Of a stretch of DNA of 64,000 bases, positions 25,480 through 62,605 are shown in pieces. Source of the DNA: Patescibacteria group bacterium (lineage in GTDB: Bacteria; Patescibacteriota; Microgenomatia; Levybacterales; UBA12049); the NCBI GenBank assembly GCA_038064195.1, contig JBBTTO010000002.1:466387-530386 (forward strand). Direction: 5' to 3'. Position numbers and translations under genes: made by a program. The stretch's first letter is position 1; every line of letters begins with the position of its first letter. Under the pieces are notes generated by a model. The model was given only the letters and a program-made list of their open reading frames with translations. It was not told the origin of the DNA and did no database searches.

Positions 25480-25480
25480 C

Positions 25481-30086: not shown

Positions 30087-30100
30087 AATGACAATAGTAT

Positions 30101-30129
30101 TGACAACACAGAGAAAACAATGAATAATA
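30101..30129 (+). promoter_or_regulatory. Candidate sigma70-type promoter TTGACA-N17-AATAAT upstream of 30152
   Basis: Perfect −35 hexamer with 17-nt spacing to an AATAAT −10. It lies in one of the few 65-nt gaps. Confidence 0.3.
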
Positions 30130-30151
30130 GTCTAGTTAATTAGCTATTTAC

Positions 30152-31327: not shown

Positions 31328-31339
31328 TCTCCCCCAACA

Positions 31340-34709: not shown

Positions 34710-34799
34710 CAATACTGTATAGTATATGATATAGCCTGCTTTAATAATAGAGAGAAGTTGTAGCATTCTCTTCTTATCATATTTATGGTATAGGTATGT

Positions 34800-37067: not shown

Positions 37068-37070
37068 TTT

Positions 37071-40597: not shown

Positions 40598-41533
40598 ATG
40601 AAATTAAGTATTGTTGTCCCTGTCTATAATGAAGAGGAGAGTTTGCCGCATTTTTACGTTGAACTCGCTAAGGTTTTGCGTGGAATAAAGAAAGATTATG
40701 AAATAATTTTTGTCGATGATGGCTCAAAGGATAGATCTTTTACCTACCTCAAAACACTTGAGAAAAAAGATAGTCATGTCAGGCTTTTTTCCTTTCGCAA
40801 AAATTTAGGTAAGGCTGAAGCACTTTCCCTAGGGTTTCTTAAAGCTAAAGGCGAGATCGTCATAACGCTTGATGCAGATCTTCAGGATCAGCCATCAGAG
40901 ATCCATAATCTTCTCAAAAAACATCAAGAAGGCTTTGATGTGGTGTGTGGTTGGAGAAAATATCGAAAGGATGCTCAAAAGATGAAATTCATCTCAAAAG
41001 TGTTTAATGGTGTTCTTAACAAGGTCTTTGATCTGTCAATTCATGACTATAATTGCGGTCTCAAACTCTATACAAATGAGGCTGCCAAGAGCCTCCATCT
41101 TTATGGGGGACTCCACAGATTTATTCCCATCATGGTTTATGAACAAGGCTTTTCAATTACTGAGATACCTGTAACTCATGAAGTTCGTAAATTCGGGCAG
41201 TCAAAGTACACATTTAATAAAATTAAAAATCTTCCCGATATGTTTACTATGCTATTTTTGATGAAATATATGAAGCGCCCCCTGCATTTTTTTGGAGCAG
41301 TTGGAGGACTTTTTAGTATGCTCGGTGTAATAATTCTCTCTTATCTCTCAATCCTCCATTTTCTAGGCGAATCAATCGGTCGACGACCGCTCCTTATTTT
41401 CGGTTTTGTTTTTGTGGTAGCGGGACTGCAAATCTTTTTTACAGGATTTTTAGCTGAGCTTCTGATTAACCTCTCCCAAAAAGGAGAGGAACATAATTAT
41501 CCTCTTAAATATATTTCGCCAAGAAGTGCCTAA
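40598..41533 (+). CDS. GtrB/ArnC-like polyprenol-phosphate glycosyltransferase (GT2 with two C-terminal TM helices)
   Basis: LSIVVPVYNEEESL...IIFVDDGSKD and ITLDADLQDQP motifs. C-terminal FFGAVGGLFSMLGVIIL and LLIFGFVFVVAGLQIFFTGFL helices, as in GtrB/ArnC/DPM1-type enzymes. Confidence 0.8.
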   Translation: MKLSIVVPVYNEEESLPHFYVELAKVLRGIKKDYEIIFVDDGSKDRSFTYLKTLEKKDSHVRLFSFRKNLGKAEALSLGFLKAKGEIVITLDADLQDQPSEIHNLLKKHQEGFDVVCGWRKYRKDAQKMKFISKVFNGVLNKVFDLSIHDYNCGLKLYTNEAAKSLHLYGGLHRFIPIMVYEQGFSITEIPVTHEVRKFGQSKYTFNKIKNLPDMFTMLFLMKYMKRPLHFFGAVGGLFSMLGVIILSYLSILHFLGESIGRRPLLIFGFVFVVAGLQIFFTGFLAELLINLSQKGEEHNYPLKYISPRSA

Positions 41534-41598: not shown

Positions 41599-42132
41599 AT
41601 GAAAATAGGTATCGACATCTCTCAACTTTCCTATCGTAATACTGGTGTTTCTAACTATCTCAAACACCTTGTAAAAGGGTTAATCGATACTGATCAGGAG
41701 AATGAATATATTCTTTTTTACTCTTCACTTCGCGGTCGACTTGATCTCCAGGACATTCCGCAGAAAAAAAACGTGAGACTAGTAAAGAGCTTCCTCCCAC
41801 CAACAGCACTTGATTTTATCTGGAACAAACTTCATATAGTACCTATTGAAATCTTTACCGGTTCTCTTGATATCTTTATTACCTCAGATTGGGTAGAGCC
41901 TCCGACGAAGGCAGCCAAGAAGGCCACCATTCTCTATGACCTGATTGTTTATAAATATCCCCAGGAGTCAACAAGTAAAATTGTCTCGACACAAAAGAAT
42001 AAATTAAAGTGGGTTAAAAAAGAAAGCGATGCGATCTTATGTATCTCTGAGGCCACAAAAAAAGATGCACAAAATCTACTGGGAATTAGCCAGGACAAAT
42101 TACATGTTATTTATCCCGGTTTTACTTTATGA
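41599..42132 (+). pseudogene. Truncated GT4 fragment (N-terminal Rossmann domain only, 177 aa)
   Basis: Resembles the N-terminal domains of 20473 and 50395 (MKIGIDIS...). It ends at HVIYPGFTL, where the intact neighbour continues HVIYPGIKP... with a C-terminal EX7E domain. No C-terminal half is present. Confidence 0.45.
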
Positions 42133-43262
42133 AAATAGCTGTAGATGCAAATGAGGCTAATGTTACTAAAAAAGTCGGTATAAGTGAGTATGCTTTCGAA
42201 CTGATAAAACAATTTGAAAAGCTTCAAACATCAAATTATAACTTTCAAATTTATCTGAAAGACCGACCAAGTTCTGATTTTCCGCCACAGGGAGCCAATT
42301 GGCACTACAAGATTTTCGGACCTAAGAAACTCTGGACTCAATTTGCTCTGCCTGTAAGTTTGTTTTTCAAAAAGGATAGACCGGATGTTTTTTTCTCACT
42401 AACTCACTATGGCCCCCGTTTTTCACCTGTCCCGACAGTGATCTCGATTATGGACCTGGCCTTTTTCCATTTTCCCGAGTATTTTACCGCAAAAGACCTC
42501 AATCAGCTCAAGAGTTGGACCGGCTATTCAGTCAGGAACGCCAAGGCTATTATTACCATTAGCGAGGCTTCTAAAAATGATATAATCAAATGGTACGGTA
42601 TAGACGGAAGTCGTATTCATGTGATCTATCCGGGTATAAAACCGACCATCACGCTCACTCCGCATATTTATTCTATGGAGGAACTGCAAACAAAGTACAA
42701 AATTAGTAAAAATTATATCCTTTTCGTCGGGACGCTTCAGCCTCGCAAAAATATCACTCGACTTATTGAAGCTTTTTCTCTTTTAATCAAGAAAAAACCA
42801 CATACTGACTCAGATCTGCAGCTTGTCATCGTCGGTAAAAAAGGTTGGAAATATGAGGAAATTCTTGAGGCGCCGCAGAAATACGGAGTGGAGGACAGGG
42901 TTACATTTGTTGATTTTGTAACGGATGAGGATCTGATCCTTTTTTATAAAAATGCATTATGCTTTGCTTGGCCGAGTCTGTATGAGGGATTTGGCTTACC
43001 CATTTTAGAGGCCATGAAGCTTGGTTGTCCGGTTGTTACCAGCAATGTGAGTAGTTTGCCTGAAGCGGGAGGGGATGCGGTTCTCTATGTCGATCCTGAA
43101 GATGTTTCCGATATTACTGATAAGTTAGACCAAGTTGCCTCAGATCCTAGGCTTCGCAAAACAATGATCGAAAAAGGCCACAGGCAAGTTCAGAAATTCA
43201 GTTGGGAAAAATCTGCCAAAGAGACTCTTGCAGTCCTGGAACAGGTTGTTAAGAATAAATAG
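42129..43262 (+). CDS. GT4 glycosyltransferase
   Basis: YEGFGLPILEAMKLGCPVV EX7E motif. ATGA overlap with the upstream fragment. Confidence 0.8.
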   Translation: MKIAVDANEANVTKKVGISEYAFELIKQFEKLQTSNYNFQIYLKDRPSSDFPPQGANWHYKIFGPKKLWTQFALPVSLFFKKDRPDVFFSLTHYGPRFSPVPTVISIMDLAFFHFPEYFTAKDLNQLKSWTGYSVRNAKAIITISEASKNDIIKWYGIDGSRIHVIYPGIKPTITLTPHIYSMEELQTKYKISKNYILFVGTLQPRKNITRLIEAFSLLIKKKPHTDSDLQLVIVGKKGWKYEEILEAPQKYGVEDRVTFVDFVTDEDLILFYKNALCFAWPSLYEGFGLPILEAMKLGCPVVTSNVSSLPEAGGDAVLYVDPEDVSDITDKLDQVASDPRLRKTMIEKGHRQVQKFSWEKSAKETLAVLEQVVKNK

Positions 43263-43263
43263 T

Positions 43264-43869
43264 ATGCAAGATAAAACAGGAAAAAAACTTTCGACTGCTC
43301 AAGTCATTACCAAAGGAACAAATCGGGTCTCTGCAATTATTCTGGAACTTACCAATTTCGTTCTCCATATTGTTGGGTGTATTCCGTCACATCATGTACG
43401 GAGGTTTTTTTATCGTCTGGCAGGGATAAAGATCGGACGAGGTTCGAGTATTCACATGGGGGCACGTTTTTATGAGCCTGATAATATACGCATTGGTAAA
43501 GATACTATTATAGGCGAGTATGCAGTATTGGATGGTAGAGATGAACTTATTATCGGAGACCATGTAGATATTGCATCAGAAGTAATGATCTATAACTCCC
43601 AGCATAATATTCATTCAGATCATTTTGCTGCTGTTGAGGATGTAACTAGGCAAAAAGTTGTTATTGAAGATTATGTATTTATCGGGCCACGGGCAATCAT
43701 CCTGCCGGGAGTCACATTGGGTAAAGGTGCCGTAGTGGGGGCAGGTGCTGTCGTAACAAAAGATGTGAAGCCATTTATGATTGTCGGCGGAGTTCCTGCC
43801 AAGGAGATCGGAGAGCGGGAGAATAAAAATCCAGCTTACAAGCTCGGGAGGGCGGCATGGTTTCGTTAG
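43264..43869 (+). CDS. Hexapeptide-repeat (left-handed beta-helix) sugar acetyltransferase
   Basis: Repeating [LIV]G..xx[LIV] hexads: IGKDTIIGEYAVL, IGDHVDIASEVMI, IGPRAIILPGVTLGKGAVVGAGAVV. Start placed at the ATG 1 nt after the upstream stop. Confidence 0.8.
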   Translation: MQDKTGKKLSTAQVITKGTNRVSAIILELTNFVLHIVGCIPSHHVRRFFYRLAGIKIGRGSSIHMGARFYEPDNIRIGKDTIIGEYAVLDGRDELIIGDHVDIASEVMIYNSQHNIHSDHFAAVEDVTRQKVVIEDYVFIGPRAIILPGVTLGKGAVVGAGAVVTKDVKPFMIVGGVPAKEIGERENKNPAYKLGRAAWFR

Positions 43870-44708
43870 TTATCCTCTCCTACAATAAAAGAGATCTTAC
43901 TGCCGAGTGCTTGACGACAGTTTTCAAGCACATTCCGGCTCGTGAGGCAGAGGTCATTGTCGTTGATAACGCCTCAACTGATGACAGTGTCGCCTATATT
44001 AAAAAAAATTTCCCCAAAGTAAAACTTATCGAGAATAACCGTAACGCCGGTTTTGCCGGAGGATGCAATGTGGGCGCCAAACATGCCAAAGGTGATTATC
44101 TCCTCTTTCTTAACAATGATGCCAAACTATCAGACAATCCTCTGACTGCCATGATTGAAGCTTTCAGTACTCATCCGGATGCCGGTATAGTCGGAGGTCT
44201 TCTAGTCAATCACAACGGGAGCCTGCAACGATCATTTGGGGCATTTTACACCGTGATAAATGTAGCGTATCTCCTTTTTGCCGGGGAGAGCGGGGAGCTC
44301 AAACGGTTCCAGAGCAAAGGCGTAAATGCTACTGACTGGGTTAGCGGGGGGTTCATGTTAATAAGGCGTGATGTTTTTGAGAAAGTGAAAGGCTTTAACG
44401 AGTCATACTTTATGTACATTGAGGACATGGATCTCTGTTATAGAGTCAAAAAAGCAGGTTTTGCCGTCTATAATACCCCGCACGCACGAGTCGAGCATTT
44501 GGGCCAGGGGAGTACCAACAAAACGTTTGCGATCGTTCATATTTTTGAAGGACTGCAGATTTTCTATAAGCAGCAGCGAAGTATACTTGAATATTATATG
44601 ATTAAATTGCTCTTATTTATCAAAGCAAGTATTTCGCTCCTTGTCGGACTCGTGACTTTTAACAAATATCTTATTACGACATATTACGCTGCATTAAAAA
44701 CTTTATGA
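43857..44708 (+). CDS. GT2 glycosyltransferase
   Basis: VSLVILSYNKRDLTAECL...VIVVDNASTDDS, FLNNDA and FMYIEDMDLCYRVKKAGF motifs. Confidence 0.8.
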   Translation: MVSLVILSYNKRDLTAECLTTVFKHIPAREAEVIVVDNASTDDSVAYIKKNFPKVKLIENNRNAGFAGGCNVGAKHAKGDYLLFLNNDAKLSDNPLTAMIEAFSTHPDAGIVGGLLVNHNGSLQRSFGAFYTVINVAYLLFAGESGELKRFQSKGVNATDWVSGGFMLIRRDVFEKVKGFNESYFMYIEDMDLCYRVKKAGFAVYNTPHARVEHLGQGSTNKTFAIVHIFEGLQIFYKQQRSILEYYMIKLLLFIKASISLLVGLVTFNKYLITTYYAALKTL

Positions 44709-47700
44709 AGATTTTAGGTTGGATCAAAAATAACTATCTCTTACTCCTTACGCTTTTTTTACTGGCATTTATTCCGCTTTATCCTAAATTCCCGCTTTTT
44801 GATATCAAACATACCTGGGTTTATATCAGAGTTGAGGATTTTGTCATAGCGTTTGCATGGCTGATTTTTCTTATTTCGTATATTCGTAAGAAAGCAACAA
44901 TCAATACGCCGATCTCGTATCCGATTCTTGTATTTTGGATTGTTGGGTTGGTTGCGACTTTGTCGGGTATTATATTTATTTTCCCGAAATTAGAAGGGGT
45001 TTTTTCAAGCCTGGCTATCCTTAACTATCTTCGTCGGGTTGAGTATCTCTCAGTATTTTTTCTGGCCTATTCAGCTATCAAAGATCGTAAGATGATCAAC
45101 CCTCTGGTCGCTACTTTGACGTCTACTCTCATAGCAGTTTTTATTTATGGACTCGGTCAGAGATTGTGGGGCTTCCCGGCATTTCTGACCATGAATGAGG
45201 AGTTTGCCAAGGGTATTCCGCTTCGCCTTTCAGCCTTAGCGCGTATTCCTTCGACCTTTGCCGGACATTACGATCTGGCGGCATACTTGATCCTGATGAT
45301 CCCCATCATCGGCAGTCTGGTTTTCGGTTATAAAAAGTTGTATCTAAAAGTCATTTTTTTTCTGACTGCTACCGCCGGTCTTATCTTGCTTCTCATGACT
45401 GCTTCACGTGTTTCGTTTGCCGTTTATATGATTTCAATTGCTCTAATGCTCATTTTCCAAAAACAAAAGAAATTTATTATTCCGGTTTTTATCTTAAGTA
45501 TTATCTTACTCAAATCATTTGGCGGTATTTCAGCCCGTTTTGCTCAGACATTTACACAGGTTGACCTGGTTGTGGATTCCCGGACCGGTAAAGCCATAGG
45601 TGTTGCCTCTGATATCGGGAACGGCACTATCACCATTGAAGACAAACAATCAAATGGCGAAAATTTGCCGACCGGCTCTCAATATATTAATCTTCCTCAG
45701 AACTCAGGTAGCGTTCAGACCTCACAAATTACCTACAAAAAATTAAAGCCTGGATCCAACCAACAGGAGATTATCAGCAAAGCAGGTACGGTTATCGTTA
45801 AAAAAGCCTTTGCTTATGATGTCTCATTTACGACCCGGTTCCAAGGCGAATGGCCCAATGCTATAAAGGCTTTCAAGCGTAACCTCCTGCTCGGCAGCGG
45901 CTATTCATCAATTACTCTTGCCACAGATAATAGCTTTTTACGTATGTTAGGGGAGACCGGTCTCTTAGGATTTTTCTCTTTTATATTTATTTTTGTCTTT
46001 GTCGGTATTTATCTGTGGCGGATTGTTCCTGAGATTGAGGATAAACGTATCGCAAGTCTTATTTATGGCGTTATGGCAGGGGTAGTAGGTCTTGCCCTAA
46101 ATGCTATCCTGATTGATGTTTTTGAGGCTTCTAAAGTGGCTTTTGTTCTGTGGCTGACGTTAGGAGCAACCATAGGCCTGGCCCATCTTTATCAGAAGAA
46201 AAAGATTGATTATCTGACTGAAATTAAAAGGATTTTCAGCTCCGTTCCCAGCTATGTTGTTATCCTATTTACCATCGGTTTTCTGGTTTTCTCGATGATT
46301 CTTACCAACTACTTTATCGGCGATGATTTTACCTGGCTGCGGTGGGCCGCAGATTGTCAGCAATTACTCCAGCAGACCGGTCTTAAGCAGTGCGGATCTG
46401 TTATCCCGACAATCACCCATTTCTTTACTGACTCAGAAGGATTTTTCTATCGCCCGGGCACAAAAAGTTATTTCTTTTTAGCCTATCCGTTTTTTGAACT
46501 TTTTCCGCTGCCTTTTCACATCGTTTCGATCCTTTTGCATATCTCAGCCAGCACGTTAGTTTTTTTCATCGGCAAAAAACTGCTTAGAAGTAATACCTTC
46601 GGGTTTATTGCGGCTCTCTTGTTCTTACTTTTGAGTGTTCACGCAGAGGCTGTCTACTGGTCATCGGTGACCGGTCATATGGTCACGACCAACTTACTCC
46701 TTCTGTCCTTCTTAAGTTATATGTACTGGCGTGAGACTAAACGTATTATTCTCTTTATTATTCCGGTTCTCGCGACATTTTTCTCAATGTTTTTTCATGA
46801 ATTCGGGACGACGGGTCCGCTGCTTTTGCTAGCCTATGACCTTATACATAGTGGCAAAAGTGTCTTAAAGCAACCCTTACGCAAATGGTATTATTTGATT
46901 CTTCTCTCACCGGTTGTTTTATATTACTTTATGCGAGTGAGCGCACAGAGTGTGTGGTTTCAGGGAGATTACAGTTACAACCTGTCCAAGTTACCCTTCA
47001 ATGTAGTAGGCAACCTTTTTGGTTACCTGATGATAACAGTCGTCGGTCCGGTCTTCCTCCCGATCTATGACAACCTCAGAGTTCAGAGCGCTCACTCACT
47101 GGTTATAACAGGGATAGTGCTTTTATTCCTCGTTTGTGGTCTGGTCATTCTTTTTCTTAAGAAATTCAGGCATATTTCTTCCAATACAAGATTTTTTCTC
47201 CTGGTAGCATTTGCTCTAACTATTATTCCTCTCCTTCCTTTCTTGGGTTTAGGTAATATTACGGCCAGATACGCCTATACAGGTTCAGTTGGAATTGTTC
47301 TCATCGCTGCTTTTCTGCTTCAGAAATTATTCCACAAAATGAGAAGACAGGTGGTCGGTGTTGGAGTAATAATCATAGTCTGTACAGGATATATTTTTAC
47401 ACAGTATTCACAATTATTGAAAATCAACCGCGATTGGGCTCGCGCAGGGGAGATTACGAACAACTTTTTAGTCAGTTTGAATGTTACTTATTCTCAACCC
47501 GGCACACTGCCTTTGCAACCGACCTTTTATTTTATCAATATCCCGATCCGTTATGGTGACGCTTGGGTCTTTCCTGTAGGACTACCTGATGCGCTGTGGT
47601 TTTCTTTCCAAAATACACCCATTAACGTTATTACAACGGCAACTGAGGCTGAGGCGAAGAGAGCCATTTTGATGGACAAGAACTCAAAAGCCTTTAAGTT

Positions 47701-47788
47701 TGACAAAGACGGCAATCTTTTCGAGTTAGCTATTCCTACTCCAGCTCTTCCTCCTGTTAAGACAGACTCAAACACGTATGGTCAGTAA
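44705..47788 (+). CDS. O-antigen ligase/polymerase-like (Wzy_C-type) domain fused to a second polytopic membrane domain (1027 aa)
   Basis: N-terminal about 500 aa: roughly 10 helices with a large extracytoplasmic loop around residues 270–400, and LGSGYSSITLATDNSFLRMLGETGLLGF after it, as in WaaL/Wzy/PglL-type proteins. The C-terminal about 520 aa hold another 10 or so helices of unknown family. Confidence 0.55.
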   Translation: MKILGWIKNNYLLLLTLFLLAFIPLYPKFPLFDIKHTWVYIRVEDFVIAFAWLIFLISYIRKKATINTPISYPILVFWIVGLVATLSGIIFIFPKLEGVFSSLAILNYLRRVEYLSVFFLAYSAIKDRKMINPLVATLTSTLIAVFIYGLGQRLWGFPAFLTMNEEFAKGIPLRLSALARIPSTFAGHYDLAAYLILMIPIIGSLVFGYKKLYLKVIFFLTATAGLILLLMTASRVSFAVYMISIALMLIFQKQKKFIIPVFILSIILLKSFGGISARFAQTFTQVDLVVDSRTGKAIGVASDIGNGTITIEDKQSNGENLPTGSQYINLPQNSGSVQTSQITYKKLKPGSNQQEIISKAGTVIVKKAFAYDVSFTTRFQGEWPNAIKAFKRNLLLGSGYSSITLATDNSFLRMLGETGLLGFFSFIFIFVFVGIYLWRIVPEIEDKRIASLIYGVMAGVVGLALNAILIDVFEASKVAFVLWLTLGATIGLAHLYQKKKIDYLTEIKRIFSSVPSYVVILFTIGFLVFSMILTNYFIGDDFTWLRWAADCQQLLQQTGLKQCGSVIPTITHFFTDSEGFFYRPGTKSYFFLAYPFFELFPLPFHIVSILLHISASTLVFFIGKKLLRSNTFGFIAALLFLLLSVHAEAVYWSSVTGHMVTTNLLLLSFLSYMYWRETKRIILFIIPVLATFFSMFFHEFGTTGPLLLLAYDLIHSGKSVLKQPLRKWYYLILLSPVVLYYFMRVSAQSVWFQGDYSYNLSKLPFNVVGNLFGYLMITVVGPVFLPIYDNLRVQSAHSLVITGIVLLFLVCGLVILFLKKFRHISSNTRFFLLVAFALTIIPLLPFLGLGNITARYAYTGSVGIVLIAAFLLQKLFHKMRRQVVGVGVIIIVCTGYIFTQYSQLLKINRDWARAGEITNNFLVSLNVTYSQPGTLPLQPTFYFINIPIRYGDAWVFPVGLPDALWFSFQNTPINVITTATEAEAKRAILMDKNSKAFKFDKDGNLFELAIPTPALPPVKTDSNTYGQ

Positions 47789-49217
47789 ATCATCTGCAAT
47801 CAGGCTACTCTTTGTAATACTTGTCTTAGGATTTTTAGTCAGGCTTTATAGGTTTGATAGTCCTATCGCGGACTGGCACAGCTGGCGTCAGGCTGACACT
47901 TCCGCCGTGTCACGTAATTTTGCCACGTATGGTTTTGATATACTCCATCCCCGTTTTGATGATTTGTCTAATGTCCCATCAGGGCTGGAAAACCCCCGGG
48001 GTTATCGTTTTGTTGAATTTCCGATCTACAATATTGCCCAAGCTGGCTTGTTCAGAATTTTTGGGGTCATTACCATTGAAGAGTGGGGAAGACTGATTAC
48101 TATCCTTACATCTCTGGCGGGTAGCTTTTTTCTTTATAAAATTGTGTCTAAATACTCGGGTGAGACTGCCGGACTGGCGAGCGCATTCTTTTATACCTTT
48201 TTACCTTTTAATATTTATTATGGTCGTACTATTTTGCCTGATCCGACCATGGTAGCAACACTCCTGAGTTCGATATATTTTTTTAGCAGGTGGATAGACA
48301 GCAAAACCAAACCCTGGTCTATTTTATCGGCAGCAACCATACTGCTGGCTGTCTCTCTTTTACTTAAGCCATACGCGCTTTTCTATGCGTTAGTTTTTCT
48401 GGCTCTGATCTACAAAGAATTTGGAACCGGTATGTTCAAGCAGCTCAAGCTTTATATTTTCGCCCTTGTGGCCGTTGTGCCACTTATTGCCTGGAGACTA
48501 TGGATCACAAATTATCCTGAGGGTATCCCTGCCAGCGCCTGGTTGTTTAACGGCAACGGTATCAGATTCCGTCCGGCTTTTTTTCGTTGGATAGGATATG
48601 AGCGATTGATCAAGCTTATATCAGGGTATATAGGCATTATTTTGGTGATTTTCGGGCTTTACCAACTCAGATTTGAAAAAGCCCGATTGCTTTATTCTGC
48701 CTTTCTCCTCAGCTCCAGTATCTATGTAGTTGTCCTGGCAACCGGTAATGTTCAGCATGATTATTATCAGATAGTCATTATGCCCAGTGTTGCGATTATA
48801 TTCGGACTGGGAGCCAGATTTTTATTAGAAAGCAAAAAAATCAGTTTTTTCCATTTTAATAGACTCTTGCTTGCTTTCATAATTTTTATCGCCTTTAGTA
48901 TGAGTTGGCTGCAGGTACGTGACTATTTTAATATCAACAACCGCTCAATAGTCATTGCCGGTGAGGCTATAGATCGGATGATACCTAAAGACGCCAAAAT
49001 TATTGCTAACTATAACGGTGATACATCATTTCTTTATCAGACGAAGCGCAAAGGCTGGGCTAGTTTTGAAAAGCCGTTACCCGAGATGATCACGATGGGG
49101 GCAGACTACCTCGCGTTGGCTAATCCGACTAAAGTCGATGAGGGATTGGGTCAGACTTACAAAATAATTAAAAAGACGAAAGACTATCTACTGCTTGATT
49201 TACACCGAAAACCATGA
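47778..49217 (+). CDS. Polytopic GT-C glycosyltransferase, PMT_2/ArnT-like
   Basis: WHSWRQADTSAVSRNF follows the first helix; I recall this as a PMT_2-type signature loop. 479 aa with about 11 helices. Confidence 0.55.
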   Translation: MVSKSSAIRLLFVILVLGFLVRLYRFDSPIADWHSWRQADTSAVSRNFATYGFDILHPRFDDLSNVPSGLENPRGYRFVEFPIYNIAQAGLFRIFGVITIEEWGRLITILTSLAGSFFLYKIVSKYSGETAGLASAFFYTFLPFNIYYGRTILPDPTMVATLLSSIYFFSRWIDSKTKPWSILSAATILLAVSLLLKPYALFYALVFLALIYKEFGTGMFKQLKLYIFALVAVVPLIAWRLWITNYPEGIPASAWLFNGNGIRFRPAFFRWIGYERLIKLISGYIGIILVIFGLYQLRFEKARLLYSAFLLSSSIYVVVLATGNVQHDYYQIVIMPSVAIIFGLGARFLLESKKISFFHFNRLLLAFIIFIAFSMSWLQVRDYFNINNRSIVIAGEAIDRMIPKDAKIIANYNGDTSFLYQTKRKGWASFEKPLPEMITMGADYLALANPTKVDEGLGQTYKIIKKTKDYLLLDLHRKP

Positions 49218-50392
49218 AGATTCTCATGATCTCATCATATCTGCCGTACCCGCTTTTTGACGGAGGTTCCGTACGCCTGTATAACCTCATGCGGGAATTA
49301 CAAAAAGAGCATGCGATTACGCTTATCTGTGAACAAAGAGTCCACCAAGGAAGGGCTGAAAAAGAGGCTGTAGAAAAAATCTGTAAAAAAGTTATTACCG
49401 TTCCCAGACGTAAGCAATGGTCAATCCCTAATCTTTTGAAAACCGGTTTATCAGGCGACTCTTTTTTGATTGTCGGTCATACACTCCCACAGATGAAAAA
49501 GGCAATCGAAGAAGAACTGAAAGCTGAGGAGTATGACCTTATTCATATAGAGACATCCTATGTGATGCAAAATCTTCCCCGGACAAAACTGCCTATTGTT
49601 TTAGTTGAACATAATATCGAGTATATGGTCTATGAAAAATTTATGAATAAAGCACCACTTCCACTGCGCCTTTTTTTGAAAATTGATATTCAAAAGCTGA
49701 AAAAACGTGAAGAAGCCTTTTGGCATCAGGCAACGCAGGTTGTAACTGTCTCTGATGTCGAAAAAGAAGTTGTCGAGAAGACAGGAATAAAAGCCAAAAC
49801 CGTTTATAACGGGGTCGATCTTGAGACATTCAAATTTAAGAAATCTGAATCTGAGAAAGATATCAAGCAATTCCTTTTTATCGGCAGCTACAAATGGTTA
49901 CAGAATCGTGATTCGGTACGCTGGATTCTTCAGGATATTTGGCCTAAGATAAGACAAAATACGAGTGAAAAAGTCGTTTTGCGGATTGTCGGGCGTGATA
50001 TGCCACGGGATATTAAAAACTGGAAGGATGACACGGTTATTATTGAGGAAAATTCACCGCGTAAAGCCGTCGACATCTTTTCCGAAAGCTTTGCTTTGCT
50101 CGCGCCGATTCGAATTGGAGGAGGAAGTCAATACAAAATTTTAGAAGCAATGGCAGTAGGCACGCCTGTTCTTACAACAAGCCTCGGTCTTTCAGGATTG
50201 GATATTAGTCCCGATCAGGATATCCTTGTTGCCGATACCGCTCAGGGATTAGTCGAGTCAGCCGTTCAATTACTCAAAGATCCAAAGCTATCCCAAAGTC
50301 TCAGAGCTCACGCTCGTAAGCAAATTGAAGCCAAATATGATTGGTCTGCTATCGCCAAAACGTTAGGGAGTGTTTATCAGTCGGTTGTCTAA
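49214..50392 (+). CDS. GT4 glycosyltransferase
   Basis: GT-B organisation. GGGSQYKILEAMAVGTPVL EX7E-like region. ATGA overlap with the upstream gene. Confidence 0.8.
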   Translation: MKILMISSYLPYPLFDGGSVRLYNLMRELQKEHAITLICEQRVHQGRAEKEAVEKICKKVITVPRRKQWSIPNLLKTGLSGDSFLIVGHTLPQMKKAIEEELKAEEYDLIHIETSYVMQNLPRTKLPIVLVEHNIEYMVYEKFMNKAPLPLRLFLKIDIQKLKKREEAFWHQATQVVTVSDVEKEVVEKTGIKAKTVYNGVDLETFKFKKSESEKDIKQFLFIGSYKWLQNRDSVRWILQDIWPKIRQNTSEKVVLRIVGRDMPRDIKNWKDDTVIIEENSPRKAVDIFSESFALLAPIRIGGGSQYKILEAMAVGTPVLTTSLGLSGLDISPDQDILVADTAQGLVESAVQLLKDPKLSQSLRAHARKQIEAKYDWSAIAKTLGSVYQSVV

Positions 50393-50394
50393 AT

Positions 50395-51552
50395 ATGAAA
50401 ATAGGGATTGATGCGAGGTTTTGGAACGAGACAGGAGTCGGGCGTTATATCCGTAATCTGGTTACAGAGCTACAGATTATTGATCAGGATAATGATTATG
50501 TACTCTTTGTCTTAAGTAAAGATTACGAGCAAGTAAAATTTCAAATTTCAAATCTCAAATTTAACATTAGAACTGTTGATATACATTGGCATTCGATTAA
50601 GGAGCAAAAAGATTTTCCTTCAATTATTACCAAGGAAAATCTTGATCTTATGCATTTCCCCTATTTCTCAATTCCAATTCTGTATAAAAGACCATATGTT
50701 GTTACGATTCATGATTTGATTCTTCACCATTTCCCGACCGGTGAAGCAACGACACTCCCAAAACCTGTCTATTTCCTAAAAATGGGCGGATATAAATATA
50801 TTATCTCTCAGGCAGCCAAGCACGCTGAGAAAATCATTGCAGTTTCCCAGGCAACCAAAGACGAGATAGTCGATCACCTTCATGTCAAACCCTCAAAAAT
50901 AGACGTAGTATATGAAGGGATCGATCCACTAATTAAAGACCACCACAAGGGCACTACCTTCAAAGAAGGGTCGCAGAGACCAAAGACCGAGGACCAAAAA
51001 TACGGGAAATACTTTCTGCACATTGGCAATGTCTATCCTCATAAAAATGCAGAACGTTTAGTTGATGCGTTTGGAAAAGCAAATGTTCCTGATACAAGGC
51101 TCATTTTTGTCGGTAAAAAAGATTATTTTATGAGCAAACTTGAACAGCGCGTGAAGAAGCAAGAGCTTCAGGATCGAATACTTTTTACCGGGTTTGTCAC
51201 AGACGAAGAGTTAGCCGGTCTTTTAAAGCACTCCTTAGCAACAGTTGTCCCATCACTTATGGAGGGCTTTGGTTTGCCTGTGATCGAAGCATTTGCCCAA
51301 AATTCCTTAGTTATAGCATCAGATATTCCCTCACTCAGAGAAGTAGCTAAAGACGCTGCTCTTTTTGTTGATCCGTTTAACATTGACGATATTTCTGCTA
51401 AGATGCAAACCGTTGCTTCAGCTGATCCTGAAGAGTTTGAATCACTTCGTAAAAAAGGTTTGGCGATTGCCCGGGGGTTTTCGTGGGAGAAGATGGCCCG
51501 GGAGACACTGAAAATCTATGAAAGTAGCGTTAGTATACGACAGAGTCAATAA
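50395..51552 (+). CDS. GT4 glycosyltransferase
   Basis: MEGFGLPVIEAFAQNSLVI EX7E motif. Start placed at the ATG 2 nt after the upstream stop; the ORF-track TTG at 50341 overlaps the upstream gene. Confidence 0.8.
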   Translation: MKIGIDARFWNETGVGRYIRNLVTELQIIDQDNDYVLFVLSKDYEQVKFQISNLKFNIRTVDIHWHSIKEQKDFPSIITKENLDLMHFPYFSIPILYKRPYVVTIHDLILHHFPTGEATTLPKPVYFLKMGGYKYIISQAAKHAEKIIAVSQATKDEIVDHLHVKPSKIDVVYEGIDPLIKDHHKGTTFKEGSQRPKTEDQKYGKYFLHIGNVYPHKNAERLVDAFGKANVPDTRLIFVGKKDYFMSKLEQRVKKQELQDRILFTGFVTDEELAGLLKHSLATVVPSLMEGFGLPVIEAFAQNSLVIASDIPSLREVAKDAALFVDPFNIDDISAKMQTVASADPEEFESLRKKGLAIARGFSWEKMARETLKIYESSVSIRQSQ

Positions 51553-52600
51553 ATGGGGAGGAGCCGAAAGGGTTCTCCTTGCTCTGCATGAGCTTTTCCC
51601 ACAGGCGCCTCTTTATACCTCGGTCTACCATCATGGGAGGGCACCATGGGCCAGCGTATTTGATATCAGGACTTCCTTTCTTCAGAACTTTCCGTTTGCT
51701 AAAGACTCGCATGAATTGTATCCGCTTTTGATGCCGGCAGCCTTTGAGTCATTTACTTTTGCTGATTATGACCTGGTTATTTCGGTAACCAGCGAGGCAG
51801 CCAAGGGTGTTATTACCAAGCCTGGGACTATGCATATCTGTTACTGTCTTACTCCGACGCGGTATCTGTGGAGCGGTCGCAGTGAGTACTTTTCAAATCC
51901 GATTCTTTCTTTTCTGGCAACACCCGCGATAAACTATTTAAAAAAATGGGATCTGGTTGCCGCGTCCCGTCCCGATCACTATATAGCTATCTCCAGGGAA
52001 GTTAAGGCACGTCTGCACAATTTCTATAGGCGTGATTCAACTATCATCCATCCGCCTGTTGAGCTTTATGCAGGGATACCTCTCAAAAAAACAGCCGGAG
52101 ATTATTATCTCGTTGTTTCACGCTTGGTTCCTTATAAAAGAGTTGATCTTGCCATAAAAGCTTGTAATAAATTAGGCCTTCCCTTAAAAGTCGTAGGTAC
52201 TGGTAACGAGGAGGAGCGCTTACGCGAAATGGCCGGACCGACAGTCGAGTTCATAGGGTCAATATCTGACGAAGGATTGATAAAACTTTACCAGCACGCA
52301 AAGGCGCTTATTTTTCCAGGTCTGGAGGATTTTGGCATAGTTATGGCTGAGTCTTTAGGCTTTGGTAAGCCTGTCATTGCTTTTGACCGCGGAGGGGCCA
52401 GAGATATAGTTGAGGATGGTCGTTCAGGCATACTTTTCACTTCTCAGAATGTAACAGCTCTCATTGAAGCTATCTTAAGATCGCAGAAAATAGATTTTAA
52501 TCCGAAGACATTGAGGAGAAGAGCGGAATTTTTCGGCAAGGATCAATTCAAAAATAAATTTTCCCGCTATATTAAGGAGATTTGCAAAAGCATAAAATAG
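51518..52600 (+). CDS. GT4 glycosyltransferase
   Basis: LEDFGIVMAESLGFGKPVI EX7E motif. 360 aa. Confidence 0.8.
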   Translation: MKVALVYDRVNKWGGAERVLLALHELFPQAPLYTSVYHHGRAPWASVFDIRTSFLQNFPFAKDSHELYPLLMPAAFESFTFADYDLVISVTSEAAKGVITKPGTMHICYCLTPTRYLWSGRSEYFSNPILSFLATPAINYLKKWDLVAASRPDHYIAISREVKARLHNFYRRDSTIIHPPVELYAGIPLKKTAGDYYLVVSRLVPYKRVDLAIKACNKLGLPLKVVGTGNEEERLREMAGPTVEFIGSISDEGLIKLYQHAKALIFPGLEDFGIVMAESLGFGKPVIAFDRGGARDIVEDGRSGILFTSQNVTALIEAILRSQKIDFNPKTLRRRAEFFGKDQFKNKFSRYIKEICKSIK

Positions 52601-52603
52601 CAC

Positions 52604-52609
52604 TATAAT
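52604..52609 (+). promoter_or_regulatory. TATAAT −10 box, 10 nt upstream of the manC ATG
   Basis: Perfect TATAAT in a 19-nt gap. Near-leaderless geometry. Confidence 0.3.
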
Positions 52610-52619
52610 AGATAAAGTT

Positions 52620-53705
52620 ATGAAAGTTGTTCTATTTGCTGGCGGTGTGGGTTCACGTCTCTGGCCACTTTCCCGCAAAAATACCCCTAAGCAATTCGGT
52701 AAGATCATTGGTGATATGTCAATGCTTCAGATAGCTGTGAAAAAACTTTTTCCTTCCTTTACCTGGTCTGACGTTTATATCTCCACCGGCAAACAATATG
52801 AGGAGATCGTACGCAACCAACTCAAAGAATTACCCTCTGAAAATATTCTTATTGAGCCTGAGATGCGTGATGTTGGTCCGGCAGTTGGCCTTATTACCTC
52901 ACTTTTCGTTAAAAGCAATCCCAATGAACCTATCGCGTTACTTTGGGGAAGTGACCATTTAGTTCGGGAAGAAGAACTGTTCCGTAAAGTGCTTAAAGCA
53001 GCTGAGCAACTGGTTCGAGAAGATGGTGAGAGAATTGTTTTTGTCGGTCAAAAGCCCCGGTTTGCCAATCAAAATTTAGGCTATATTGAATACACATCAC
53101 AAGTCAAAGAAGTTGATGGACTACCTGTTTATTCATTTTCCAATTTCCAGTATCGCCCTCATTTATCAAAAGCTGAGAGATGGGTTAAGGACGGCCATCA
53201 TGCGTGGAATTTGGGGTATTTTGTCACAACTCCTGCTTTTCTTTGGAAACTTTTTGAACAGTTCGCCCCTGAGCTCTTCGTTAAGCTTAAAAAAATTAAT
53301 GATGCTATAGGTACTCCTGAATATGATAAGGTGCTGCAGGAAATTTATCCGACAATTGAAAAGATTTCTTTTGATAACGCCATTCTTGAAAAGATGGATC
53401 CTAAATATGGCTACGTGCTTTCTGTTGATTTGGGTTGGAGTGATATTGGCGCGTGGGAAGCTCTGAAAGAGGCTCTATCGGTAAATCAAAATGAAAATGT
53501 CACAAGAGGTGATGTTCTGATTGAAGATACCGAAGATTCATTAGTATTTAATTTTACCAAGCAGCTTGTGGTAGGCATTGATCTAAAGGGTATGGTGGTT
53601 GTAAATACAGGTGATGTACTTCTCATCTGTCCTAAAGATTCAGTACCAAAAGTGAAGGAGATCGTGGCCGGCTTGAGTGGAACAGAACATGAGCATTTGA
53701 CGTAG
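52620..53705 (+). CDS. manC: Mannose-1-phosphate guanylyltransferase (GDP-mannose pyrophosphorylase), no PMI domain
   Basis: GGVGSRLWPLSRKNTPKQF matches the GGxGxRLWPLSR signature. 361 aa. Confidence 0.8.
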   Translation: MKVVLFAGGVGSRLWPLSRKNTPKQFGKIIGDMSMLQIAVKKLFPSFTWSDVYISTGKQYEEIVRNQLKELPSENILIEPEMRDVGPAVGLITSLFVKSNPNEPIALLWGSDHLVREEELFRKVLKAAEQLVREDGERIVFVGQKPRFANQNLGYIEYTSQVKEVDGLPVYSFSNFQYRPHLSKAERWVKDGHHAWNLGYFVTTPAFLWKLFEQFAPELFVKLKKINDAIGTPEYDKVLQEIYPTIEKISFDNAILEKMDPKYGYVLSVDLGWSDIGAWEALKEALSVNQNENVTRGDVLIEDTEDSLVFNFTKQLVVGIDLKGMVVVNTGDVLLICPKDSVPKVKEIVAGLSGTEHEHLT

Positions 53706-53707
53706 CC

Positions 53708-54373
53708 ATGCCATACATCGAAATTAAAAAGAGTAGAGGGTATGAATTAGTAAAGCGGCTCATCGATATAGTATCTGCGCTTATTATTCTCATCATTTTT
53801 TCTCCGGTTATTCTTATTGTCGCTATAGCCATCATGCTTGATTCCAAGGGTCCTATTTTAGCTGATACTCCGGAGCGTGTAGGGCAGGAGGGTAAGCTTT
53901 TTAAGATGTTTAAATTTCGTTCCATGATTCCTAACGCCCATACTATTTTGCGTGAAGATCCTGAATTCGCCGCGCTGTATGAACAGTACAAAAAAGGAAG
54001 TTATAAGCTGAAAAATGATCCGAGGATTACCAGAGTGGGAAGGTTTATCAGGAAGCATTCGTTAGATGAGGCACCCCAGTTGTTTAATGTTCTTAAAGGA
54101 GATATGAGTCTGGTAGGTCCGAGAGCCTACTATCCTGATGAGTTACGAGACCAACAGAAGAAATACCCGGAGACACAAGATGCAGTCAAAGTCGTGCTAT
54201 CGGTAAAGCCTGGAGTGACAGGCCTATGGCAAGTATCAGGCAGAAGTGAAATAAATTTTGACAAACGTATTAAGATGGACGCTAATTATGTAAGAAGACG
54301 TTCAATTCTCTATGATATGTGGTTAATTTTATGTACCCCTGCCGCAGTGATAACGGGGAAAGGAGCGCGGTAA
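53708..54373 (+). CDS. Polyprenyl-phosphate sugar-1-phosphate transferase (bacterial sugar transferase, small monotopic PGT; initiating enzyme)
   Basis: One N-terminal helix LIDIVSALIILIIFSPVILIVAIAIML. Contains FKFRSM, VGPRAYYPDE and PGVTGLWQVSGRS, the hallmarks of the WbaP/PglC C-terminal-domain family. Confidence 0.85.
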   Translation: MPYIEIKKSRGYELVKRLIDIVSALIILIIFSPVILIVAIAIMLDSKGPILADTPERVGQEGKLFKMFKFRSMIPNAHTILREDPEFAALYEQYKKGSYKLKNDPRITRVGRFIRKHSLDEAPQLFNVLKGDMSLVGPRAYYPDELRDQQKKYPETQDAVKVVLSVKPGVTGLWQVSGRSEINFDKRIKMDANYVRRRSILYDMWLILCTPAAVITGKGAR

Positions 54374-54391
54374 TAATTTTCTTCTGTCAAG

Positions 54392-54421
54392 TTGACAAAG
54401 GCTAAAGCTCTCTCGTATCAT
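54392..54421 (+). promoter_or_regulatory. Candidate promoter TTGACA-N18-TATCAT, ending 6 nt before the ATG at 54428
   Basis: Perfect −35 hexamer. The ORF-track TTG start coincides with the −35 box, so the true start is more likely the ATG at 54428 (leaderless). Confidence 0.4.
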
Positions 54422-54427
54422 TGTCAT

Positions 54428-56996: not shown

Positions 56997-57003
56997 AGGC
57001 ACA

Positions 57004-58740: not shown

Positions 58741-58833
58741 AATTCTATGACTTATTGCAGTGTAGGGTATGGCTATCGGCGCGTCAATATCATCATGCTT
58801 TTCGCATGCTTCTTTTTCTGCTATCATAGGCTC

Positions 58834-61915: not shown

Positions 61916-61980
61916 TCTTGCTTTGAAGCATATCTACCATACATTATATTCGTATTTAGTTCAAGTAATATTTGGATGTG

Positions 61981-62008: not shown

Positions 62009-62017
62009 TAATTCAGA

Positions 62018-62518: not shown

Positions 62519-62605
62519 CCTCCACTAGTTCCATTTTCTTACATTTCTCTTACTACATGTTGTGTTAGTTCTTTCATTTCGGACACTATTTTTATGAAAA
62601 AACTG

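What the first reader, a model, noticed from the sequence alone, without database searches (positions are those of the whole stretch)
44705..47788. 1027-aa fusion of a Wzy_C (O-antigen ligase/PglL-like) domain with a second polytopic membrane domain
The N-terminal half has the helices, the large outside loop and the post-loop helix pattern of WaaL/Wzy/PglL-type proteins. The C-terminal half is a second module of about 10 helices of unknown family. The locus contains no lipid A or LPS-core genes. In a monoderm context a Wzy_C enzyme could polymerise the repeat unit, ligate the Und-PP-glycan to a cell-wall acceptor, or act as a PglL/PilO-type O-oligosaccharyltransferase onto pilins or S-layer proteins. 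The neighbouring initiating PGT (53708) and Wzx (21518) complete an Und-PP pathway.
Basis: partly seen in the sequence, partly recalled or inferred. Interest (0 to 1): 0.7.

Follow-up and report, generated by a model that had tools for sequence, protein, structure and literature searches.

The report
Fused double membrane glycosyltransferase of Microgenomates
This is a real, widely conserved gene of Microgenomates (candidate phyla radiation) bacteria that joins two different lipid-carrier-dependent membrane sugar transferases in one protein, probably to couple two late steps of cell-surface glycan assembly outside the membrane; its product and acceptor are unknown.

Summary
The 1027-aa ORF at 44705-47788 (+) is real and is not a mis-assembly. 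At least 587 species-level genomes encode the same full-length protein, and the named ones are mostly Levy-, Gottesman-, Roizman- and Woesebacteria. It always sits in the same operon. In a sister clade the two halves are separate adjacent genes.

The "unknown" C-terminal half (about 514-1010) is a GT-C_A glycosyltransferase of PMT/TMTC/ArnT/OST fold. It has an invariant Asp540-Asp541 at the start of its first outside loop, and no Pfam model covers it.

[quoted passage not shown] The N module transfers or polymerises the Und-PP-linked oligosaccharide built by the operon. The C module adds a sugar from an Und-P-sugar donor. Polymerase versus ligase, the donor, and the acceptor are all inferred, not shown.

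I class it as a new variant of known kinds, of moderate interest.

The parts
44705..47788 (+). Whole ORF, 1027 aa: bimodular GT-C_B + GT-C_A membrane glycosyltransferase
   Evidence: ORF. AF2 model pLDDT 80.3, pTM 0.79. Homologues.
44705..46189 (+). N module, residues 1-495: 12-TM WaaL/Wzy/SEDS-type (GT-C_B) domain
45407..45409 (+). Arg235 (motif TASRVSF), at the position of WaaL's first Und-PP-binding Arg
   Evidence: Invariant in 44/44 sequences. Aligns with E. coli WaaL R215. The role of the WaaL arginines is taken from PMC10920833.
45551..45817 (+). Beta-rich insert (residues 283-371) in the large outside loop; family-specific and low-confidence in the model
   Evidence: DSSP strands and pLDDT 42-65. 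Absent from WaaL in the alignments.
45836..45838 (+). Arg378 (motif SFTTRFQGEWP), at the position of WaaL's second Und-PP-binding Arg
   Evidence: Invariant in 44/44 sequences. Aligns with E. coli WaaL R288 once the insert is removed.
45923..45970 (+). Motif T407-D408-x8-E417-x-G419-L-x-G422. Asp408 is the candidate catalytic base in place of the ligase His.
   Evidence: D408 and E417 are invariant, and there is no His between residues 189 and 493. The motif aligns in register with E. coli RodA T261-D262...E-L-G. One alignment places D408 opposite WaaL H338.
46190..46243 (+). Cytoplasmic linker (residues 496-513) between the two modules
   Evidence: AF2 secondary structure. In the split form the gene boundary falls here.
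46244..47488 (+). C module membrane domain (residues 514-928): GT-C_A fold
46322..46327 (+). Asp540-Asp541, directly after the first helix of the C module: candidate catalytic acidic pair of GT-C_A enzymes
   Evidence: Invariant in 44/44 sequences. Conserved in split-form P0184 and aligned to the DD of P0293.
46355..46393 (+). Cys551 and Cys563 in the first outside loop: possible disulfide
   Evidence: Both invariant. The disulfide is inferred, not shown.
47489..47758 (+). Small alpha/beta outside domain (residues 929-1018) with the invariant motif AWVFPxGxxDAxWF
   Evidence: AF2 secondary structure. Invariant columns.
40598..41533 (+). ArnC/GtrB/PgfS-like GT2 with two C-terminal TM helices: candidate Und-P-sugar synthase that supplies the GT-C_A modules
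   Evidence: NCBIfam ArnC 2.6e-52, PgfS 9e-47, AglJ 1e-24. TM helices. Present near the fusion in 33 of 81 loci.
41599..44708 (+). Conserved upstream genes: GT4 N-domain protein, GT4, hexapeptide acetyltransferase, GT2 (283 aa)
   Evidence: Pfam. Conserved in 65, 73, 74 and 75 of 81 loci at fixed offsets.
47778..49217 (+). PMT_2 GT-C gene, translationally coupled downstream
   Evidence: Pfam PMT_2 7.9e-14. Present in 73 of 81 loci. Overlap shown.
49214..56368 (+). Rest of the conserved operon: three GT4 genes, mannose-1-P guanylyltransferase, small WbaP/WcaJ-type PGT, DUF4012 protein
   Evidence: Pfam and NCBIfam. Present in 45-71 of 81 loci.

Best explanation
The ORF encodes a two-module integral-membrane glycosyltransferase of Microgenomates (Patescibacteria), and both active sites face the outside of the cytoplasmic membrane.

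Shown here:
- Residues 1-495 adopt the WaaL/Wzy/SEDS (GT-C_B) fold. Invariant Arg235 and Arg378 sit at the two Und-PP-binding positions. Invariant Asp408 stands where ligases carry their catalytic His.
- Residues about 514-1010 adopt the GT-C_A fold (PMT/TMTC/ArnT/OST). An invariant Asp540-Asp541 pair follows the first helix, and a small outside domain ends the protein.
- The gene is fused in hundreds of genomes. In a sister clade it is split into two adjacent genes in the same operon.

Inferred mechanism:
- The operon's small PGT, four to five GT4 enzymes, one GT2 and an acetyltransferase build an Und-PP-linked oligosaccharide in the cytoplasm.
- After flipping, the N module transfers this Und-PP-glycan onto a sugar acceptor with inversion. 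Because it uses the Asp-type base of SEDS and inverting Wzy polymerases, and is the only such enzyme in the module, this step is most likely repeat-unit polymerisation.
- The C module adds a hexose, probably mannose, from an Und-P-sugar. GDP-mannose would come from the operon's guanylyltransferase, and the Und-P-sugar would be made by the nearby ArnC/GtrB-like GT2.
- The target is the same product or its acceptor. Fusion would couple the two outside steps.
For: ORF and translational coupling.

N module:
- Pfam Wzy_C E 8.7e-7.
- Profile-profile against 21 WaaL sequences aligns R235 with R215 and R378 with R288.
- No His occurs between residues 189 and 493. D408 is invariant and aligns in register with RodA D262.
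- PMC10920833 states that the SEDS Asp and the Asp/Glu of inverting Wzy polymerases align with the ligase His.

C module:
- Sequence links to PMT-type enzymes: hhalign to PMT proteins of the window; weak PMT/PMT_2 hits in relatives; 97.6% probability to a GT-C+TPR protein with the DD, YRP and HxExV motifs aligned.

Context and conservation:
- An ArnC-like GT2 and a GDP-mannose enzyme are in the operon.
- At least 587 species carry the gene, and the operon is fixed across 81 loci.
- The split form occurs in three independent contigs.
- No other Wzy_C-type gene was found in the window.
Against: - No biochemical data exist for any member of the family.
- Asp versus His does not prove polymerase versus ligase. 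The alignment of the His region to WaaL is ambiguous (differs).
- No Wzx-type flippase or recognised chain-length regulator lies in the conserved module. The window's Wzx is 22 kb away.
- Foldseek ranks OST catalytic subunits, which use lipid-PP-oligosaccharide donors, above PMTs for the C module. The donor is therefore not settled.
- The ArnC-like GT2 was found near the fusion in only 33 of 81 loci, and it could instead serve the neighbouring PMT_2 enzyme.
- Three polytopic proteins in the window without a Pfam match (16368, 34800, 38005) could hide a divergent Wzy.
Confidence: 0.5

Rival explanations
1. Prime-and-ligate enzyme. The N module is a monoderm-type ligase (as WaaL is for LPS). It moves the finished Und-PP-glycan en bloc onto a non-lipid-A acceptor such as a glycolipid anchor or a wall polymer. 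The C module first adds the acceptor sugar from an Und-P-sugar. This parallels WadA, where a GT25 domain adds the last core sugar and the fused GT121 domain ligates the O-antigen.
Against: The ligase catalytic His is absent and is replaced by an Asp in a SEDS-like motif. No candidate acceptor-synthesis genes were identified. If the N module is a ligase, no polymerase is left in the conserved module. That would be acceptable only if the product is a single oligosaccharide.
Confidence: 0.22
2. Polymerase fused to an en-bloc transferase. The N module polymerises, and the C module is an OST-like GT-C that moves the finished chain from its lipid carrier onto the final acceptor. This resembles the WpsH (polymerase) and WpsJ (GT-C transferase) steps proposed for the Lactococcus pellicle polysaccharide.
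Confidence: 0.13
3. Protein glycosylation machine. The N module acts as a PglL/PilO-like O-oligosaccharyltransferase, and/or the C module acts as a PMT/TMTC-like protein O-mannosyltransferase, on pilins, S-layer proteins or other surface proteins.
For: The C module's nearest sequence relatives outside its own family are GT-C+TPR proteins of the PMT/TMTC type (PMC7801869). The operon's make-up (small PGT, GT4 enzymes, GT2, acetyltransferase) resembles pgl-type loci, with weak PglH/J/I hits.
Against: The catalytic His of PglL-type enzymes is absent. The TPR acceptor-binding domain is missing. No pilin or S-layer gene was seen in the conserved module. The module has two GT-C_A enzymes and many GTs, which fits polysaccharide assembly.
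Confidence: 0.1
4. Assembly or annotation artefact: two separate genes wrongly joined.
For: A sister clade does carry the two halves as separate genes.
Against: There is no stop or frameshift in the window. The contiguous full-length form occurs in more than 120 proteins from four data sources and in at least 587 species genomes. Sequence is conserved across the junction. The AF2 whole-protein pTM is 0.79.
Confidence: 0.01

Closest known systems
WaaL O-antigen ligase (CAZy GT121; PDB 7TPG/7TPJ)
   Different: There is no catalytic His; an invariant Asp408 stands in its place. The big loop carries a beta-rich insert of about 90 residues. There is no lipid A-core acceptor, because the host is a monoderm-type candidate phyla radiation (CPR) bacterium and no LPS genes are present. 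The module is fused to a second glycosyltransferase.
SEDS polymerases RodA/FtsW (GT119) and inverting Wzy-type polymerases (GT125-129), CAZy clan GT-C1
   Different: The N module is much closer to WaaL than to SEDS in overall structure. It is not in a peptidoglycan context. Membership of a particular Wzy family (GT125-129) was not tested.
WadA bimodular ligase (GT121 + GT25; Brucella/Mesorhizobium)
   Same: One polypeptide joins a WaaL-type module to a second glycosyltransferase that acts on the same product.
   Different: WadA's partner is a soluble, nucleotide-sugar-dependent GT25 domain. Here the partner is a second polytopic GT-C_A module that depends on a lipid carrier.
PMT / PMT_2 / TMTC-type GT-C_A transferases (GT39, GT83, GT105) and bacterial GT-C+TPR proteins
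   Same: Same fold. An acidic pair follows TM1 (DD). The YRP and LLF..H..HxExV motifs are shared. hhalign gives 97.6% probability to a Geobacter GT-C+TPR protein. The polyprenyl-P-hexose donor is an inference.
   Different: There is no Pfam PMT, PMT_2 or DUF1736 hit. There are no TPR or MIR domains; a small alpha/beta domain is present instead. The module is fused behind a GT-C_B module. The acceptor is unknown.
Oligosaccharyltransferases STT3/PglB/AglB (GT66)
   Different: There is no WWDxG motif. The outside domain has about 90 residues rather than more than 250. There is no sequence-level similarity.
Multi-component transmembrane glycosylation systems of Gram-positives (GtrB/CsbB/GacI-type GT2 + flippase + GT-C such as YfhO/GacL; Lactococcus WpsH/WpsJ)
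   Same: The logic is the same: a GT2 makes an Und-P-sugar inside, and a GT-C enzyme uses it outside. In Lactococcus a polymerase and a GT-C transferase are proposed to act consecutively (PMC10821137, PMC8035078).
   Different: Those components are separate proteins. No GtrA- or Wzx-type flippase was found in the conserved module here.

Membership tests
Pfam Wzy_C (PF04932) | HMM score at or above the curated gathering score (31.7 bits) | tested here: inconclusive
   This protein scores 29.3 bits, E 8.7e-7, over residues 224-427 (profile positions 5-149 of 149), so it is just below threshold. Most homologues carry a precomputed PF04932 hit.
GT-C_B structural class (WaaL/SEDS/Wzy) | Characteristic polytopic fold with a large outside loop near the C-terminus | tested here: met
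O-antigen ligase WaaL (GT121) | Two conserved Arg residues that bind the Und-PP diphosphate | tested here: met
   R235 aligns with EcWaaL R215 and R378 with R288 in profile-profile alignments. Both are invariant in 44/44 sequences.
O-antigen ligase WaaL (GT121) | Catalytic His in the last large periplasmic loop (EcWaaL H338, CmWaaL H313) | tested here: not met
   No His occurs between residues 189 and 493, and no His-rich column exists there in 44 homologues. Invariant D408 occupies the motif.
O-antigen ligase WaaL (GT121) | Lipid A-core acceptor and an LPS genetic context | tested here: not met
   No lipid A or core-oligosaccharide families were found among the window ORFs of at least 120 aa that I scanned. 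The host lineage is Patescibacteria.
PglL/PilO O-oligosaccharyltransferases | Essential His equivalent to the WaaL His; a neighbouring pilin or target protein gene | tested here: not met
   The His is absent. No pilin-like gene is in the conserved module. A genome-wide search for targets was not done.
Inverting Wzy polymerases / SEDS (CAZy clan GT-C1) | One or two conserved Arg residues plus a conserved Asp or Glu at the position of the ligase His | tested here: met
   R235, R378 and D408 are invariant. D408 aligns with RodA D262 in motif register. The criterion is taken from PMC10920833.
Wzx/Wzy-dependent pathway polymerase | Polymerises flipped Und-PP repeat units; accompanied by a PGT, a Wzx and a chain-length regulator | tested here: inconclusive
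   The PGT is conserved in the operon (55 of 81 loci). No Wzx lies within 10 kb in 81 loci, and the window's Wzx is 22 kb away. No recognised regulator was found, and the role of DUF4012 is unknown. Polymerase activity cannot be tested here.
GT-C_A structural class (PMT, ArnT, OST, ALG, DPY19, Emb/Aft) | Conserved GT-C_A membrane fold | tested here: met
GT-C_A structural class | Catalytic acidic residue or residues at the start of the first outside loop, after TM1 | tested here: met
   D540 and D541 are invariant in 44/44 sequences. They lie directly after helix 514-534, are kept in split-form P0184, and align to the DD of P0293.
Pfam PMT / PMT_2 (GT39/GT83-type) | HMM match above threshold | tested here: not met
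   This protein has no hit. Only 2 of 11 C-halves hit PMT_2, at E 0.013. More distant relatives P0243 and P0253 do hit PMT or PMT_2. hhalign to PMT proteins of the window gives 46-69% probability.
Oligosaccharyltransferase GT66 (STT3/PglB/AglB) | WWDxG motif in a large C-terminal outside domain | tested here: not met
   No WWD occurs in any of 44 members. The outside domain has about 90 residues.
WadA-type bimodular ligase | GT121 module fused to a GT25 domain | tested here: not met
   The second module is a polytopic GT-C_A domain, not GT25. Only the bimodular principle is shared.

The most novel reading that the evidence does not exclude
The protein is a self-contained 'outside-the-membrane' assembly machine not described before. 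It would be a single polypeptide in which a lipid-monophosphate-dependent GT-C_A module and a lipid-diphosphate-dependent GT-C_B module hand a substrate directly to each other. This could mean priming an acceptor with mannose and then attaching or polymerising the Und-PP-glycan on it, or polymerising the chain and then transferring it. In that case it would define the core surface glycopolymer pathway of Microgenomates, possibly without a conventional Wzx flippase, Wzz regulator or LCP ligase. The C module would be the founding member of a new GT-C family.
Probability: 0.2. Interest if true: 0.7.

Novelty: new variant of a known kind. Interest (0 to 1): 0.5.

Why it matters
Almost nothing is known about the cell-envelope glycans of candidate phyla radiation (CPR) bacteria. 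These glycans probably mediate attachment to hosts and recognition by phages. This gene and its roughly 12-gene operon are conserved across hundreds of Microgenomates species, so they probably make a core surface glycopolymer.

The protein is a natural 'Rosetta stone'. It shows that a WaaL/Wzy-type enzyme and a PMT/TMTC-type GT-C enzyme work together. The C module is a large sequence family that Pfam does not cover.

Current databases label the protein 'O-antigen ligase family protein'. That label is probably misleading, because there is no LPS, no catalytic His, and half of the protein is left unannotated. The invariant residues listed here (R235, R378, D408, D540/D541) give direct targets for mutagenesis and heterologous reconstitution.

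Tried and rejected
- Sequence searches against PDB chains found nothing at E <= 10. I tried the whole-protein profile, the C-half profile and an insert-free N-core sequence.
- NCBIfam gave only a meaningless weak IctB hit (31.7 bits against a cut-off of 366).
- The afdb50 fold library was not available, so I could not look for the two-module architecture among AlphaFold models outside this lineage.
- Literature searches for this fusion, or for O-antigen ligases in CPR bacteria, returned nothing relevant.
- hhalign of the N-half profile against single WaaL or RodA sequences gave very low probabilities. I used those runs only for motif register. The profile-profile runs confirmed the two Arg positions. 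They aligned the D408 region to a non-conserved EHN of E. coli WaaL rather than to H338, so the Asp-for-His equivalence rests on the RodA register, on the absence of any His, and on PMC10920833.
- P0121, an apparent stand-alone 541-aa C-half, is only a contig-edge fragment.
- I rejected the mis-assembly explanation.
- I rejected the OST reading as a membership claim, because WWDxG is absent.
- I did not search the genome for pilin or S-layer targets. Only this window is available, and none appeared in the conserved module.


Full report
**1. The observation**

The window holds an uninterrupted ORF of 1027 codons at 44705-47788 on the + strand.
- Its ATG overlaps the TGA of the upstream GT2 gene (ATGA).
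- The downstream PMT_2 gene starts 11 nt before its TAA.
- It is therefore an internal, translationally coupled gene of a long same-strand operon.

Pfam finds only Wzy_C (PF04932), at residues 224-427. The match has E 8.7e-7 and 29.3 bits, slightly below the gathering score of 31.7. Nothing matches the C-terminal half. NCBIfam gives only a meaningless weak IctB hit. Hydropathy and the structure model show about 12 helices in the first 495 residues. A further 13-14 helices and a small soluble domain follow.

**2. The fusion is not an artefact**

- A database search returned more than 120 full-length proteins of 1008-1131 aa with 43-93% identity. They come from NCBI, JGI, ENA and Logan assemblies, and some are named as Candidatus Levybacteria or Patescibacteria.
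The 80 best hits cover essentially the whole protein, apart from a few cut by contig ends.
- The informative record titles are mostly Levy-, Gottesman-, Roizman- and Woesebacteria, that is, Microgenomates.
- Sequence is conserved across the junction.

**3. The operon is conserved**

I ran tblastn with the window's neighbouring proteins against 81 related loci, whose fusion proteins share 37-66% identity with the window protein. The order and spacing are fixed (gene tables). Counts are loci out of 81:

| Gene | Loci |
|---|---|
| GT4 N-domain protein | 65 |
| GT4 | 73 |
| Hexapeptide acetyltransferase | 74 |
| GT2 (283 aa) | 75 |
| Fusion | 81 |
| PMT_2 | 73 |
| Three GT4 genes | 60-71 |
| Mannose-1-P guanylyltransferase | 57 |
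| Small WbaP/WcaJ-type PGT | 55 |
| DUF4012 | 45 |
| recO | 23 |

- Many loci are cut by contig ends, so these counts are lower bounds.
- An ArnC/PgfS/AglJ-like GT2 with two C-terminal TM helices lies at 40598-41533. This is the architecture of polyprenyl-phosphate sugar synthases. It was found nearby in 33 loci.
- The window's Wzx-type gene (21485-22786) has no counterpart within 10 kb of the fusion in any locus.
- No lipid A or LPS-core families were found among the window ORFs of at least 120 aa that I scanned.

**4. The N module**

The AlphaFold model built from a 44-sequence alignment has pLDDT 80.3 and pTM 0.79.
- Profile-profile comparison with 21 enterobacterial WaaL sequences gives E 2e-5, and 6e-5 with the insert removed. 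It aligns R235 with E. coli R215 and R378 with R288. Meitil et al. (PMC10920833) describe the equivalent residues, R191 and R265 of the solved WaaL, as the Und-PP phosphate binders. Both are invariant here.
- The third ligase hallmark is the His proposed to activate the acceptor (H313 of the solved WaaL, H338 in E. coli, invariant). It has no counterpart. There is no histidine at all between residues 189 and 493, and no His-rich column in the family.
- Instead, an invariant T407-D408 is followed nine residues later by E417-x-G419-L-x-G422. This matches E. coli RodA T261-D262...E-L-G-L-x-G in register.
- PMC10920833 reports that the essential SEDS Asp, and the conserved Asp/Glu of inverting Wzy polymerases, align with the ligase His.
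- Caveat: alignment of this short region to WaaL itself is ambiguous.
- The large outside loop also carries a family-specific beta-rich insert of about 90 residues (283-371), modelled with low confidence.

**5. The C module**

- A separate model of residues 501-1027 has pLDDT 76 and pTM 0.80. With Foldseek its top 23 hits are all GT-C_A enzymes. STT3, PglB and AglB come first (E 2e-4 to 2e-2), then DPY19, AftA and Pmt4.
- D540-D541 is invariant. It sits immediately after the first helix of the module (514-534). In GT-C_A enzymes this is the position of the catalytic acidic residue(s), from established knowledge of PglB, PMT and ArnT.
- No Pfam model covers the module.
- A full HMMER search with a C-half profile found 158 cluster representatives at E <= 1e-30. 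It found 10,716 at E <= 1e-10. The module is thus a distinct family inside a very large GT-C superfamily.
- The sequence links point to the PMT/TMTC side:
  - hhalign to PMT proteins of the same window gives 46-69% probability.
  - Distant relatives hit PMT or PMT_2.
  - The nearest outgroup is a set of roughly 600-aa GT-C+TPR proteins, one of them from Geobacter pickeringii. hhalign gives 97.6% probability with the DD, (Y/F)YRP, H-x-E-x-V-x-W and RY-x-Y motifs aligned.
  - The LLF..H..HxE motif recalls human TMTC3 'LLFAVHPIHT' (PMC7801869). Homology to human TMTCs was not itself tested.
- The OST hallmark WWDxG is absent from all 44 members, and the outside domain has only about 90 residues.

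**6. A split form exists**

Stand-alone C-module homologues of 447-485 aa form a small clade. In three independent contigs each lies directly downstream of a 522-540-aa gene, in the same GT4 / acetyltransferase / GT2 ... PMT context.
- The upstream 531-aa protein of L087 is 40% identical to the N module (E 3e-104). It keeps the SR, TTR and VD...GE.G motifs.
- P0184 is 30% identical to the C module (E 1e-51). It keeps DDF, FFYRP, GDYSY, LPFLGLG and RY.Y.
- In two cases the genes are separated by 22 and 61 nt, so these are truly separate genes.
- This is classic fusion/fission evidence that the two modules work together.

**7. Topology and mechanism**

The N module has twelve helices, so its C-terminus lies on the same, cytoplasmic side as in WaaL. 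The next helix then carries D540/D541 to the outside. All invariant polar residues of both modules fall in outside loops or at outside helix ends. This topology is inferred from the model and from the known topology of the two fold classes.

The most economical mechanism is as follows.
- The PGT, GT4 enzymes, GT2 and acetyltransferase assemble an Und-PP-oligosaccharide.
- After flipping, the N module transfers it with inversion onto a sugar acceptor.
- The N module has the Asp-type base of SEDS and Wzy enzymes, and it is the only Wzy_C-superfamily gene in the module. I therefore favour repeat-unit polymerisation.
- The C module adds a hexose, plausibly mannose, from an Und-P-sugar. The operon encodes a mannose-1-P guanylyltransferase and an ArnC-like GT2.
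- The target is the same polymer or its acceptor.

The steps beyond fold, motifs, conservation and gene linkage are inference.

**8. Rivals**

- Prime-and-ligate (WadA-like), about 0.22. It fits the strong WaaL resemblance. It must explain the missing His.
- Polymerase plus OST-like en-bloc transferase (WpsH/WpsJ-like, PMC10821137), about 0.13. It fits the Foldseek ranking. It is contradicted by the sequence relatives and by the missing WWDxG.
- Protein glycosylation (PglL-like and/or PMT/TMTC-like), about 0.10. It fits the TMTC-like kinship. It lacks the His, a TPR domain and a target gene.
- Artefact, about 0.01.

**9. Novelty and score**

Both folds are known, and bimodular ligases exist (WadA, GT121+GT25; PMC10920833). 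I found no description of a GT-C_B/GT-C_A fusion, of this C-module family, or of this operon. Public annotation is 'hypothetical protein' or 'O-antigen ligase family protein'. I class it as a new variant of known kinds. It is interesting mainly because it is a core, lineage-wide envelope gene of a poorly understood bacterial radiation, and because the fusion makes a functional coupling testable. Interest is 0.5.

Noticed in passing
window 1-58827: Nearly the whole window is one same-strand glycan super-cluster with at least 11 GT-C-type polytopic proteins. PMT/PMT_2 genes start at 1273, 10535, 12177, 17813, 47778 and 57004 (- strand). YfhO genes start at 2909 and 6561. A PTPS_related/YfhO-like gene starts at 13874 and a DUF2079 gene at 39143. 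Unannotated polytopic proteins start at 16368 and 34800. This is an unusually high density of lipid-carrier-dependent outside transferases.
   Followed up: partly
window about 22000-40000: GC drops to 0.34-0.39, against 0.41-0.43 elsewhere. The genes here are an AsnB-like amidotransferase (26392), two methyltransferases, a DegT aminotransferase, the unannotated proteins at 34800 and 38005, and the DUF2079 gene (39143). The three that I searched for (34800, 38005, 39143) each turned up in only 1 of 81 related loci. This is probably a variable or acquired glycan-decoration segment.
   Followed up: partly
window 41599-42132: A stand-alone 177-aa protein consists only of a GT4 N-terminal Rossmann domain. 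It lies directly upstream of a complete GT4 and is conserved in 65 of 81 loci, so it is not a pseudogene fragment. It may be a split or heteromeric glycosyltransferase.
   Followed up: no
window 54392-56368: A DUF4012 protein (658 aa, one N-terminal TM helix) closes the conserved operon in 45 of 81 loci. Méheust et al. (PMC6744442) list this family as enriched in CPR and Gram-positive bacteria and linked to CPS/EPS loci. It could be the missing chain-length regulator or an export partner.
   Followed up: partly
window 21485-22786: The only Wzx-type (Polysacc_synt) gene lies 22 kb upstream of the fusion. It has no counterpart within 10 kb of the fusion in 81 related loci, so the flippase of the conserved module is unidentified.
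   Followed up: partly
loci L005, L012, L013, L015 and many others: Many species-representative MAGs carrying this Patescibacteria-type operon are titled 'uncultured Gammaproteobacteria' (TPA_asm records). One each is titled Limnocylindrales and Saccharimonadales. These are probably placeholder or wrong taxonomic labels.
   Followed up: no
L087 4406-7413; L088 3013-5947; JGI 3300071325 contig: A sister clade of unknown taxonomy carries the two modules as separate adjacent genes in the same operon context. An AA_kinase gene lies further downstream in two of them.
   Followed up: yes
P0290-P0305, e.g. Geobacter pickeringii P0293: The nearest outgroup of the C module is a widespread set of bacterial proteins of about 600 aa. 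Each has an unannotated GT-C membrane domain followed by TPR repeats, an architecture like that of eukaryotic TMTC O-mannosyltransferases. Pfam annotates only their TPR part.
   Followed up: partly
window 5884-6399 (-) and 19953-20516 (-): ORFs of 171 and 187 aa lie antisense inside + strand genes. They are probably spurious.
   Followed up: no
window 56448-64000: Housekeeping genes flank the cluster: recO, a class II aminoacyl-tRNA synthetase (58747-60345), a glutamine amidotransferase-domain protein (60338-61915, - strand) and mraZ (62747-63184). The glycan operon is therefore embedded in the core genome rather than in a mobile island.
   Followed up: no
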